Below, one piece after another: positions 6,667 through 9,617 of a stretch of 64,000 bases of DNA. The first letter of the stretch is position 1. The number at the start of each line of letters is the position of its first letter. Made by a program: the position numbers and the translations under genes. The stretch lies in assembly GCF_057098645.1 (NCBI RefSeq), contig NZ_CM169472.1. One strand, given 5' to 3'. The notes beneath the pieces are model-generated. The model was not told the DNA's origin, made no database searches, and saw nothing but the letters and a program-made list of their open reading frames with translations.

Positions 6667-6854
6667 CTGTTCATATCCTCACAGATAAAAAATCGCCCTC
6701 ATCTTGGAGGGCAAAGAAGATTTCCAATAATCAGAACAAGTCGGCTCCTGTTTAGTTACGAGCGACATTGCTCCGTGTATTCACTCGTTGGAATGAATAC
6801 ACAGCGCTGTGTTTATTCTGTTGTTTGCGTGAAAATGAAATCCGCCTGAGCGGG

Positions 6855-7736
6855 TTATGACCACTTTTTGTTTGGGTTTCGTTGGTGAGCGTGGTTTACA
6901 GGATTATTTGATATACCCCATAACTCTGACTCGCTTATCTCTACACGAGAGAAAGACCTGCTTTCTTTCAGTTCTTTTATAAACCTAGAACCTAAGATGA
7001 CATCTATTGTACCAGAAAGTTCTTGTAAAAGATCTTTGTTTTTTCTGAGGAAGAAAATATCTTCTTTATATTTAATTTTTACATAGAATTTATTCTGTAT
7101 TTTTAATATATCAAAGCATGGCAGATATCTATATCCCTCATATTTTCGCCACTGCTTAACAATTATAACATCTTTTTCATTTACTGCATTAATCAGCCCA
7201 AGACCAAGTACAGGTATGAATATTCTATTGTCTGCCGAAAGCGTACAATTATCACCACCAGGCAAATATGTATAAATCATGTCGGAATTTTTATACGCAT
7301 CAACGAATGCACGTAAGAAGCGTACATATTTTTGCCATCCGTTTATACCGAATTTACCATATAAGTATTCTTTATTTGTTAGAAGAAAACTATTTGTATC
7401 AGGATCCTTATCTACAGACCTGTCGATAAGATCTCCAACTACGTTTACAAAGTCAAAGACAGAGTTTAATAAGAACAATTGTCTTTCAGTAGGGCGAATT
7501 TCAATTATGTAGCCAGGATGAAGACGATATTGCATCTGCTTACGAAGTATACCGAACGCTTGGGTCCGAGCATCTGAAAGCAACTTCTTGTCGCCATCGC
7601 CGTGAGCATTGTTTCTAATAAAACTGATATAATTTGCTAATTTTTCAGCCTCTTTTTTGTGTTTTTTTCGCTCTGATGCTGAGTCTATTGGTTTTGGTAT
7701 GGACTTGTAATCAATCTTCTTCATTACGTACCTCAT
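6855..7736 (-). CDS. Uncharacterised 293-aa protein at the N-ea10 (ral/sieB) position; candidate defence or anti-defence moron
   Basis: Track ORF; start overlaps the N stop (ATGA); a second in-frame Met (MKKIDYK) has a GAGG Shine-Dalgarno; strongly AT-rich; no motif I can recognise. Confidence 0.8.
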   Translation of the reverse strand: MRYVMKKIDYKSIPKPIDSASERKKHKKEAEKLANYISFIRNNAHGDGDKKLLSDARTQAFGILRKQMQYRLHPGYIIEIRPTERQLFLLNSVFDFVNVVGDLIDRSVDKDPDTNSFLLTNKEYLYGKFGINGWQKYVRFLRAFVDAYKNSDMIYTYLPGGDNCTLSADNRIFIPVLGLGLINAVNEKDVIIVKQWRKYEGYRYLPCFDILKIQNKFYVKIKYKEDIFFLRKNKDLLQELSGTIDVILGSRFIKELKESRSFSRVEISESELWGISNNPVNHAHQRNPNKKWS

Positions 7737-8056
7737 GCCAATGGAATGGATTCCCCTTTAACCTTTTGTCTTCCTTGACAAGTTATACCGAACTCACCTG
7801 GCTTGCTATACCAAACTCGATGATTCTTGCGCTCAATACGTTGCAGGTTGCTTTCAATCTGTTCGTGGTATTCAGCCAGCACCGTAAGGTCTATCGGATT
7901 CAGTGCGCTTTCTACTCGTGATTTCGGTTTGCGATTCAGCGAGAGAATAGGGCGGTTAACTGGTTTAGCGCTTACCCCAACCAACAGGGGATTTGCTGCT
8001 TTCCATTGAGCCTGTTTCTCTGCGCGACGTTCGCGGCGGCGTGTTTGTGCATCCAT
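7733..8056 (-). CDS. N: Antiterminator N, 107 aa
   Basis: Track ORF 7733-8188 trimmed to MDAQTRRRERRAEKQAQWKAANPLLVGVSAKPVNRPILSLNRKPKSRVESALNPIDLTVLAEYH..., matching lambda N; the longer frame would overlap nutL. Confidence 0.93.
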   Translation of the reverse strand: MDAQTRRRERRAEKQAQWKAANPLLVGVSAKPVNRPILSLNRKPKSRVESALNPIDLTVLAEYHEQIESNLQRIERKNHRVWYSKPGEFGITCQGRQKVKGESIPLA

Positions 8057-8213: not shown

Positions 8214-8243
8214 GCCCTTCTTCAGGGCTTAATTTTTAAGAGC
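8214..8243 (-). promoter_or_regulatory. nutL: nutL (boxB GCCCTGAAGAAGGGC plus boxA-like GGCTCTTAA)
   Basis: Reverse complement of 8214-8228 is the lambda nutL boxB; boxA-like element lies just upstream on the minus strand. Confidence 0.8.
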
Positions 8244-9545: not shown

Positions 9546-9578
9546 ATGCAAACTCTTTCTGAACGCCTCAAGAAGTGA
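9546..9578 (+). pseudogene. cro: cro (434-type) truncated after about 10 codons by IS629
   Basis: ATG CAA ACT CTT TCT GAA CGC CTC AAG AAG = MQTLSERLKK, then the IS629 terminal repeat begins at 9576 and supplies a stop. Confidence 0.85.
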
Positions 9579-9617
9579 ACCGCCCCGGGTTTCCTGGAGA
9601 GTATTTTATCTGTGAAC

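What the first reader, a model, noticed from the sequence alone, without database searches (positions are those of the whole stretch)
6855..7736. Uncharacterised AT-rich 293-aa gene coupled to N where lambda carries ral and sieB
In lambda the interval between N and ea10 holds ral (restriction alleviation) and sieB (superinfection exclusion). Here both are replaced by one 293-aa ORF with no motif I can recognise (no Walker, HEPN, PD-(D/E)xK or obvious nucleotidyltransferase signature). Its start overlaps the N stop (ATGA) and a second Met has a good Shine-Dalgarno, so it is probably translated with N from pL. It is much more AT-rich than the flanking lambda genes, which points to horizontal acquisition. 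Two hairpins lie between it and ea10 (about 6690-6720 and 6777-6804). Expression from pL argues for a role in early lytic growth (anti-restriction or host takeover); a defence role in the lysogen would need an internal promoter. This is my top candidate for an undescribed function in the window.
Basis: partly seen in the sequence, partly recalled or inferred. Interest (0 to 1): 0.85.

Follow-up and report, generated by a model that had tools for sequence, protein, structure and literature searches.

The report
Phage 434 Nun-tailed TnpB-like protein
This is a real, conserved early gene of phage 434 whose product joins a body folded like the nucleic-acid-binding half of the transposon nuclease TnpB to the exact RNA-polymerase-jamming tail of the HK022 Nun exclusion protein, so it is most likely an untested transcription-arrest factor aimed at a new target.

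Summary
The ORF is real and the window is a defective phage 434 prophage (100% identical to OL657226). The true start is probably the second Met (7724; 289 aa). It is under purifying selection and AT-rich (34.6% GC against 48.8% for N). It lies between N and the first terminator of the pL operon, where lambda has sieB-orf28-ral.

The last 14 residues (VNHAHQRNPNKKWS) are identical to HK022 Nun residues 96-109, the segment that enters RNA polymerase and blocks translocation. GenBank already calls the gene "Nun C-terminal peptide-containing protein". No paper I found in the held library, including the 434 genome announcement, discusses it.

New here:
- The tail is kept in homologs of only 36-48% identity, with mostly synonymous codon changes.
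- Distant relatives carry a different tail and sit between brxC and pglX in BREX operons.
- In viral contigs the Nun tail occurs on two architectures only: short arginine-rich-motif proteins and this long form.

Best reading: a Nun-class arrest factor whose TnpB-like body replaces the arginine-rich motif as targeting module. Target, timing and phenotype are untested.

The parts
6855..7724 (-). Coding sequence of the 289-aa protein (stop codon 6855-6857). The alternative upstream ATG at 7736 would add MRYV.
   Evidence: ORF. 100% identical to phage 434 CPT_434_48. The start at the second Met is conserved in homologs, and in L005 the upstream ATG runs into TAA. dN/dS is 0.25.
7731..7734 (-). Shine-Dalgarno GAGG, 6 nt before the ATG at 7724. 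It overlaps the N stop codon (7733-7735).
   Evidence: Sequence. The same GAGG-N6-ATG arrangement occurs in L005. Annotated as a ribosome binding site in OL657226.
7524..7724 (-). Residues 1-67: basic N-terminal helical hairpin (helices 16-38 and 43-65, pI 10). It is specific to the phage subfamily. The stretch S17-K28 loosely resembles an arginine-rich motif.
   Evidence: AF2 model with pLDDT 84-96. Charge. Alignment with the N and Nun arginine-rich motifs is marginal (E 0.055).
7050..7523 (-). Residues 68-225: core domain with the fold of the TnpB/Cas12 WED+REC module (strand, three helices, then a beta-sheet). Family motifs: IEIRPTERQ, FLLxNK, C(S/T)(L/I)S, LGLGLI, RY, KFYVKI.
6948..7049 (-). 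Residues 226-259: low-confidence helix linking the core to the tail. It contains GTIDVILG, which could be a relic of the RuvC-I strand (speculative).
   Evidence: AF2 pLDDT 49-72. Alignment. The spacing argument is inference only.
6900..6947 (-). Residues 260-275: predicted disordered linker that includes the family-conserved motif ES(R/K)S(F/Y)(S/A)RVEIS.
   Evidence: pLDDT below 50. The motif is conserved in the phage subfamily and, as SxxYSRVDF, in distant relatives.
6858..6899 (-). Residues 276-289, VNHAHQRNPNKKWS: identical to HK022 Nun residues 96-109 (N97, H98, H100, R102, K106, K107, W108, S109), the RNA-polymerase translocation-arrest peptide.
   Evidence: Kang et al. 2017 (PMC5386594) give the role of these residues. 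Homologs show 6-8 synonymous against 2-3 non-synonymous codon changes.
7733..8056 (-). Antiterminator N (lambda-type arginine-rich motif), the cistron immediately upstream.
   Evidence: 20 of 24 long-form genes in viral contigs directly follow an N-like gene.
8214..8228 (-). nutL boxB (GCCCTGAAGAAGGGC). boxA lies at about 8237-8243, and the pL transcription start at about 8278.
   Evidence: Sequence. Annotation of OL657226 mapped onto the window.
6693..6714 (-). Intrinsic terminator hairpin plus T-run, the first annotated terminator of the pL operon. It lies downstream of the gene.
   Evidence: It is part of a block shared with lambda and many lambdoid phages.
6775..6806 (-). 14-bp hairpin (-21.4 kcal/mol) in the shared lambdoid intergenic block. 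It is not specific to this gene.

Best explanation
The gene encodes a Nun-class transcription-elongation arrest factor with a new targeting module.

Shown:
- Its last 14 residues are the HK022 Nun arrest peptide.
- They sit at the end of a roughly 30-residue segment predicted to be disordered.
- The rest of the protein is a basic helical hairpin plus a domain with the WED+REC fold of TnpB/Cas12, and there is no nuclease domain.
- The gene occupies the 'nun slot': first or second gene of the pL operon, ahead of the first terminator.

Inferred:
[quoted passage not shown] There it locks the enzyme to its nucleic acids so that it cannot translocate.
- The TnpB-like body does the job of Nun's arginine-rich motif. 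It would bind a particular nucleic-acid feature near the upstream DNA or RNA exit, such as a nascent RNA structure or a DNA motif. This raises the local concentration of the tail only on chosen transcription complexes.
- The targets are probably transcription complexes of competing phages, or of the host during early lytic growth. They are not 434's own N-modified complexes.
- Because the gene is co-transcribed with N from pL, it should act immediately after infection or induction. Whether it is also made in the lysogen is unknown.
For: Tail:
- Identical to Nun 96-109.
- Nun residues 87-109 are the only part seen inside the elongation complex and hold all known arrest determinants. N103, which varies in this family, is dispensable (PMC5386594).
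- The tail is kept in homologs of 36-68% identity, with 6-8 synonymous against 2-3 non-synonymous codon differences.
- Residues 260-281 are predicted disordered.

Body:
- The core matches TnpB/Cas12 WED+REC.

Modularity:
- In 120 viral contigs the tail occurs on only two architectures: 90 short proteins with very diverse arginine-rich motifs, and 24-25 long proteins of this type.
- One prophage carries N, the long form and a short arginine-rich-motif Nun in tandem.

Position:
- In L003 the homolog lies directly after an HK022-type putL, exactly where nun lies in HK022.
- In 434, L005, L006 and 20 of 24 viral contigs it directly follows an N-like gene.
- No terminator lies between pL and the gene.

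Defence context:
- Distant relatives of the core lie in BREX operons and a defence island.
Against: - No experiment bears on this protein.
- The long form lacks Nun H93 and R94, and R94A strongly weakens Nun binding to polymerase. The tail alone may therefore bind poorly.
- No arginine-rich motif is convincingly present, and no target RNA or DNA is identified.
- 434 itself uses a lambda-type N and boxB, so a lambda-nut target would be self-harming. From my own knowledge, lambda plates on 434 lysogens in classical work, so lambda is probably not the target.
- No promoter for lysogenic expression was found. HK022 nun, by contrast, has its own constitutive promoter (King et al. 2000, cited in PMC5386594).
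- Sequence-level homology to TnpB is weak (HHalign probability 11.6%, P 0.0026).
Confidence: 0.55

Rival explanations
1. The protein regulates the phage's own transcription. The tail docks it on polymerase, and its purpose is to time or limit 434's own pL/pR transcription. It could, for example, compete with N or enforce arrest at particular sites, rather than excluding other phages or shutting off the host.
For: The gene is co-transcribed with, and possibly translationally coupled to, N. Lambda N crosses the hybrid cavity of RNA polymerase (PMC9378689), and Nun's tail enters the same cleft, so the two could compete on the same complexes. No lysogenic promoter was found.
Against: A homolog also occurs in a put-type phage with no N. 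Lambda and most lambdoid phages do without it. The gene is a mosaic, AT-rich accessory carried by only 82 of 5426 E. coli genomes. That pattern is typical of competition genes, not core regulators.
Confidence: 0.15
2. The protein is an anti-defence factor. Relatives of its core are built into BREX operons, so the phage copy could mimic or poison a host defence component. It sits in the slot where lambda keeps ral (restriction alleviation).
For: Relatives lie between brxC and pglX in at least five loci. Expression is early, from pL. The gene occupies the ral/sieB position.
Against: The BREX relatives share only 16-23% identity with the 434 protein and carry a different tail (GGLPSLGKRR). The 434-type tail is specifically the polymerase-arrest peptide and is under selection. 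In one phage the gene lies beside a classical short Nun, which fits exclusion better.
Confidence: 0.1
3. The protein is an RNA-guided silencer. Like nuclease-dead TnpB derivatives (TldR, dCas12f-sigmaE), it would carry a guide RNA that base-pairs with target DNA, and the tail would stop the polymerase that arrives there.
For: The core has the TnpB WED+REC fold, the part that holds guide RNA and reads the adjacent DNA motif.
Against: The protein has no RuvC or zinc-finger part, and from general knowledge of TnpB structures those parts also hold the guide RNA. No conserved non-coding region flanks the gene. The gap to N is 8 nt. The BREX relatives are 23 and 35 nt from their neighbours. In L003, L005 and L006 the gene is followed at once by a terminator. 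Rfam found nothing.
Confidence: 0.08
4. The tail is a recombination scar. It came with the HK022-like downstream DNA and has no function in this protein, whose real activity lies elsewhere.
For: DNA identity with HK75 begins at the third tail codon and runs about 190 nt downstream, so a recombination joint lies exactly there.
Against: Homologs whose DNA has diverged to saturation keep the tail at the protein level, including every residue known to matter in Nun. The joint is better explained by recombination within an already shared, conserved sequence.
Confidence: 0.04

Closest known systems
HK022 Nun (UniProt P18683; PHROG 5632), transcription-arrest exclusion protein
   Same: The last 14 residues are identical, including N97, H98, H100, R102, K106, K107, W108 and S109. 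The acidic stretch before the tail is similar. The locus is the same: promoter-proximal in the pL operon, followed by the same downstream DNA block and terminator.
   Different: The 434 protein is 289 aa against 109-112 aa. It has no convincing arginine-rich motif. It has a roughly 160-residue TnpB-like domain and a helical hairpin instead. It lacks the DVMHR segment (Nun H93, R94). In 434 it follows N instead of replacing it. No own promoter was found, and its target is unknown.
TnpB / Cas12f / Cas12n RNA-guided nucleases and their nuclease-dead derivatives (TldR, dCas12f-sigmaE)
   Same: The fold and strand-helix order match the N-terminal WED+REC half. Sequence motifs fall in the same register: the N-terminal strand followed by 'P..eQ', the 'lP.lG.i' strand and the 'gkyyv.i' strand. 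Like the dead derivatives, it seems to act on transcription rather than by cutting DNA.
   Different: The whole RuvC nuclease and zinc-finger part is missing, not merely inactivated. There is no adjacent guide-RNA locus, no IS200/IS605 ends and no TnpA. It carries a polymerase-invading tail instead. The 2023 TnpB/Cas12 census does not mention BREX or prophage contexts, and its exapted forms are described as inactivated rather than RuvC-less (PMC10691335, keyword look-up only).
Lambda sieB, orf28 and ral (occupants of the same interval in lambda)
   Same: The same position between N and ea10. All are accessory genes involved in conflict with other phages or with host restriction.
   Different: There is no sequence or structural similarity, and the gene number and orientation differ.
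BREX-embedded relatives (P0026, P0031, P0032 and similar) between brxC and pglX
   Same: They share the core domain (profile E-values 1e-7 to 1e-16 and about 1e-60 to 1e-70) and the SxxYSRVDF-like motif before the tail.
   Different: Their C-terminal tail (…GGLPSLGKRR) and N-terminal extension are different, and they are chromosomal defence-operon genes, not phage genes. Their function is also unknown.

Membership tests
Nun family (HK022 Nun; PHROG 5632) | C-terminal translocation-arrest peptide with H98, R102, K106/K107, W108 and a free C-terminus | tested here: met
   Residues 276-289 are identical to Nun 96-109. PHROG 5632 matches residues 274-293 of the 293-aa ORF, E 7e-5. The peptide is conserved under selection.
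Nun family (HK022 Nun; PHROG 5632) | N-terminal arginine-rich motif that binds the boxB RNA hairpin | tested here: inconclusive
   BLASTP finds no N-terminal similarity to Nun. There is a basic helix (SERKKHKKEAEK; SRRRKAEKK in P0033) that aligns loosely with the N and Nun motifs (E 0.055). It is lysine-rich, poorly conserved and nearly absent in P0003.
Nun family (HK022 Nun; PHROG 5632) | Small size (about 70-125 aa) with an unstructured linker between motif and tail | tested here: not met
   The protein is 289 aa with a confidently folded domain of about 210 residues. All 90 short tail-bearing proteins in viral contigs are 60-130 aa.
Nun family (HK022 Nun; PHROG 5632) | Promoter-proximal position in the pL operon, ahead of the first terminator | tested here: met
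Nun family (HK022 Nun; PHROG 5632) | Arrests RNA polymerase on a competitor's transcripts and excludes that phage; expressed in the lysogen | not testable with these tools
   No promoter-like site was found on the gene's strand between pL and the start. Transcription assays, a phage panel and lysogen RNA-seq are needed.
TnpB / Cas12 superfamily | WED+REC N-terminal module | tested here: met
TnpB / Cas12 superfamily | RuvC nuclease domain (D-E-D) with inserted zinc-finger/TNB domain | tested here: not met
   After the last WED strand (residue 219) only one short and one long helix (221-228, 234-259) and a disordered tail remain. There is no CxxC pair (sequence), and the HHalign match stops at TnpB residue 179, before D191.
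TnpB / Cas12 superfamily | Adjacent guide (omega or CRISPR) RNA locus, or transposon ends | tested here: not met
   There is no flanking non-coding space specific to the gene, no Rfam match, and the downstream block is generic lambdoid DNA.
PHROG 12139 (unknown function) | Full-length match to the profile | tested here: met
   E 1.6e-205 over residues 5-293 against profile positions 1-289 of 289.
Known defence-system proteins (PADLOC), Pfam-A, NCBIfam | Any profile match | tested here: not met
   No hits for the 434 protein. No Pfam hit for any of 24 family members, and no significant PADLOC or NCBIfam hit for 8 members tested.

The most novel reading that the evidence does not exclude
RuvC-less TnpB derivatives (WED+REC only) form an unrecognised family of targeting modules. 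They deliver short C-terminal 'effector tails' to host machines. In lambdoid phages the tail is the Nun polymerase-jamming peptide, giving sequence- or structure-directed transcription arrest used in phage-against-phage conflict. In BREX operons a second tail (GGLPSLGKRR) would couple the same module to that defence system. If the module still reads a DNA motif or a small RNA as TnpB does, this would be a natural, compact, retargetable transcription-arrest device.
Probability: 0.2. Interest if true: 0.9.

Novelty: new variant of a known kind. Interest (0 to 1): 0.8.

Why it matters
Nun is the textbook case of a protein that stops RNA polymerase by wedging into it. It has been studied only as a small protein guided by an arginine-rich motif.

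This protein shows that the same arrest peptide is carried, under selection, by a quite different body derived from the TnpB/Cas12 lineage. It does so in one of the founding phages of molecular biology. About one in five Nun-tail genes in a viral-contig sample are of this long type.

It gives a direct experimental handle on three questions:
- How can polymerase arrest be retargeted?
- What can the WED+REC half of TnpB do on its own?
- What does the related, unannotated gene inside some BREX operons do?

It also adds a probable competition gene to the N-to-ea10 hotspot of lambdoid phages. This matters for prophage interference in pathogenic E. coli, where the gene is present in 82 of 5426 complete genomes.

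Tried and rejected
Searches that gave nothing:
- Pfam, NCBIfam and PADLOC gave no hit for the protein or its relatives.
- A profile search of PDB sequences gave nothing.
- Rfam on the loci gave only the lambda cIII thermoregulator.
- The promoter scan found no site on the gene's strand between pL and the start, so lysogenic expression stays open.
- A word-indexed protein search with the Nun C-terminus returned only five fragments. I replaced it with a degenerate DNA pattern scan.
- King et al. 2000 on the nun promoters is not held. Three literature searches for TnpB+Nun and Nun+434 found nothing, and one keyword look-up inside a BREX review (PMC12839542) also found nothing.

Weak or inconclusive results:
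- The first AlphaFold run with three sequences was unusable (pLDDT 43). The run with 31 sequences was good.
- HHalign against TnpB gave the right register but weak statistics. I therefore claim fold-level similarity and only probable homology.
- The idea that the N-terminal basic helix is a true arginine-rich motif could not be established.

Ideas rejected:
They are generic lambdoid DNA.
- The tail is not a mere recombination scar.

Full report
**Observation.** The ORF at 6855..7736 on the minus strand exists (293 aa from the first ATG). The region is 100% identical to phage 434 (OL657226/OL657227).
- The first ATG overlaps the N stop codon as ATGA. A second ATG at 7724 has GAGG six bases upstream.
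- The ORF has 34.6% GC (GC3 30%), against 48.8% for N and 50.5% for the window.
- Two hairpins lie downstream: 6775-6806 (-21.4 kcal/mol), and a terminator-like hairpin at 6693-6714 with a T-run.
- Lambda has sieB, orf28 and ral in the same N-to-ea10 interval.
- The gene is under purifying selection. dN/dS is 0.25 against a 97.7% identical E. coli allele, and synonymous sites are saturated against distant homologs with pN 0.19-0.45.

- The real start is almost certainly the second Met (289 aa). In homolog L005 the overlapping ATG is followed by an in-frame TAA. All divergent homologs begin at the equivalent of the second Met, and GenBank starts the gene there too.
- The hairpins are generic. 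From about 30 nt past the stop (query 75 onwards), the block is found in lambda itself and in about 330 lambdoid phage records.
- The protein is not motif-free.

**The tail.** The last 14 residues, VNHAHQRNPNKKWS, are identical to the C-terminus of HK022/HK75 Nun. PHROG 5632 (Nun-like termination factor) matches only this end. GenBank already names the product 'Nun C-terminal peptide-containing protein'. The genome announcement does not discuss it (PMC9119081), and I found no paper that does.

In the cryo-EM structure of Nun on an elongation complex, only residues 87-109 are visible. They hold all known arrest determinants (PMC5386594):
- N97, H98 and H100 contact the RNA, the template strand and the beta-prime rudder.
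- Residues 102-109 fill a pocket between the hybrid and the downstream duplex.
- R102 pairs with the C-terminal carboxylate.
- N103A is wild-type.

The 434 protein keeps all of residues 96-109 but lacks H93 and R94. R94A weakens binding but not activity.

**Is the tail an accident?** DNA identity with HK75 starts at the third tail codon and runs about 190 nt downstream, so a recombination joint lies there. However, five homologs of 36-68% protein identity all keep VNHAH-x-R-x-x-x-KKW(S). Over 13-14 codons they show 6-8 synonymous and only 2-3 non-synonymous differences, at the positions of Nun Q101, N103, P104 and N105. The tail is therefore a selected part of this family.

**The body.** No Pfam, NCBIfam, PADLOC or PDB-sequence match exists.
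- An exhaustive profile search found about 24 clusters. They include distant relatives of 213-326 aa that share residues about 73-225.
- With a 31-sequence alignment AlphaFold gave a confident model (mean pLDDT 81.6; residues 10-225 above 84 by 10-residue block; residues 260-281 disordered).
- The ten best Foldseek PDB hits are all Cas12 proteins. In AFDB50, after the family itself, the hits are annotated 'Transposase' or IS605 OrfB.
- HHalign against a 79-sequence TnpB N-terminal alignment aligns residues 68-225 with TnpB 3-179 in the expected register (IEIRPTERQ with VVRLYPNAAQ; IPVLGLGLI with KLPKLGWV; KFYVKIKY with HYEASVLCEV). The statistics are weak (P 0.0026).

The core is therefore a WED+REC module of TnpB type. 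The RuvC and zinc-finger half is absent, not merely inactivated. I saw no guide-RNA locus: the gap to N is 8 nt, the downstream DNA is generic, and Rfam is silent. The TnpB/Cas12 census has no mention of BREX or prophage contexts and describes exapted forms as inactivated, not RuvC-less (PMC10691335, keyword look-up only).

**Context.**
- In L003 the 42%-identical homolog lies directly after a cI-like repressor and an HK022-type putL, with no N. That is exactly the nun slot.
- In 434, L005 and L006 it directly follows an N gene.
They hold 90 short proteins (60-130 aa) with very diverse arginine-rich motifs, 24-25 long proteins of this type, and one chance hit. Of the 24 long ones, 20 directly follow an N-like gene.
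- L006 carries N, the long form and an uncalled 102-aa short Nun in tandem.
- The gene is present nearly full-length in 82 of 5426 complete E. coli genomes.
- Distant relatives with another tail (…GGLPSLGKRR) lie between brxC and pglX in BREX operons confirmed by PADLOC, or in a defence island.

**Mechanism.** The Nun tail thus occurs on two kinds of carrier. In the short kind the carrier is a known RNA-targeting peptide. By analogy, the TnpB-like body of the long kind is the targeting module and the tail is the effector.

I propose tail-mediated translocation arrest of selected elongation complexes, expressed with N as an immediate-early product. The gene lies ahead of the first terminator. 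The steps from 'has the tail' to 'arrests polymerase', and from 'WED+REC fold' to 'binds a specific nucleic acid', are inferences.

The target is unlikely to be the lambda-type nut site, because 434 uses it itself. Lambda N crosses the same polymerase cavity (PMC9378689), so N-modified complexes might be immune. That is untested.

The rivals are self-regulation, anti-defence mimicry, RNA-guided silencing and a functionless tail. They are weighed in their own sections.

**Verdict.** The gene is a new variant of a known kind (Nun-type arrest factors), with a body from the TnpB lineage that has not been described in this truncated form. It is uncharacterised experimentally and readily testable.

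Noticed in passing
L006 9037-9345 (+): An uncalled 102-aa ORF lies directly downstream of the long-form homolog. It encodes a short Nun-like protein with an arginine-rich motif (KGRRRALRMQQRRDL) and a Nun tail (VVNHAHQRRPNKKWS). This prophage therefore has N, a long and a short Nun-tail gene in tandem.
   Followed up: partly
L007, L008, L010, L011, L012 (gene at 8001-8831/8867, or 4390-5256 in L011): Distant relatives of the core domain (276-288 aa, tail …GGLPSLGKRR) are a conserved extra gene between brxC and pglX of BREX operons. PADLOC, Pfam and NCBIfam have no model for them. Their conserved C-terminal tail is unexplained.
   Followed up: partly
L007 12257-16487: Inside the same BREX-like operons, three genes after pglX (376 aa, 423 aa and a 610-aa HSP70-family protein) have no PADLOC match. 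A second MmeI-type methyltransferase gene follows them.
   Followed up: no
window 9546-11265: The 434 cro gene (start about 9546, MQTLSERLKK) is interrupted near 9578-9612 by an IS3-family element on the minus strand (orfB 9618-10508, orfA 10505-10831). Beyond it only the C-terminal part of the lambda-type O gene remains (10909-11265). The rest of cro, cII and the 5' part of O are missing, so the window holds a defective 434-like prophage and not the free phage genome.
   Followed up: partly
viral contigs L100-L219: Several 88-aa proteins combine a lambda-N-like N-terminus (MDAQARRREKRKEKQEEWKRQNPTSVG…) with a Nun tail (…VVNHAHQRNRNKKW). They appear to be natural N/Nun chimeras that would bring the arrest peptide to N-type boxB sites.
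   Followed up: no
L015 2393-3039 (E. coli ET450): An N-like gene with a different arginine-rich motif is followed immediately by a classical 112-aa nun gene, annotated only as 'transcriptional regulator'. The order N then nun therefore recurs outside 434.
   Followed up: no
protein P0008 (E. coli, 96 aa): A fusion of the first 23 residues of Bet with the last 73 residues of the 434-type protein. It appears to be a deletion derivative that removed everything between the two genes but kept the tail in frame.
   Followed up: no
window 6948-7049 (residues 226-259): The motif GTIDVILG lies about 20 residues after the last WED strand, the spacing at which TnpB has its first RuvC strand (GVDVGIK). 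It may be a relic of the lost nuclease domain. The Asp is not invariant (D/E/A).
   Followed up: no
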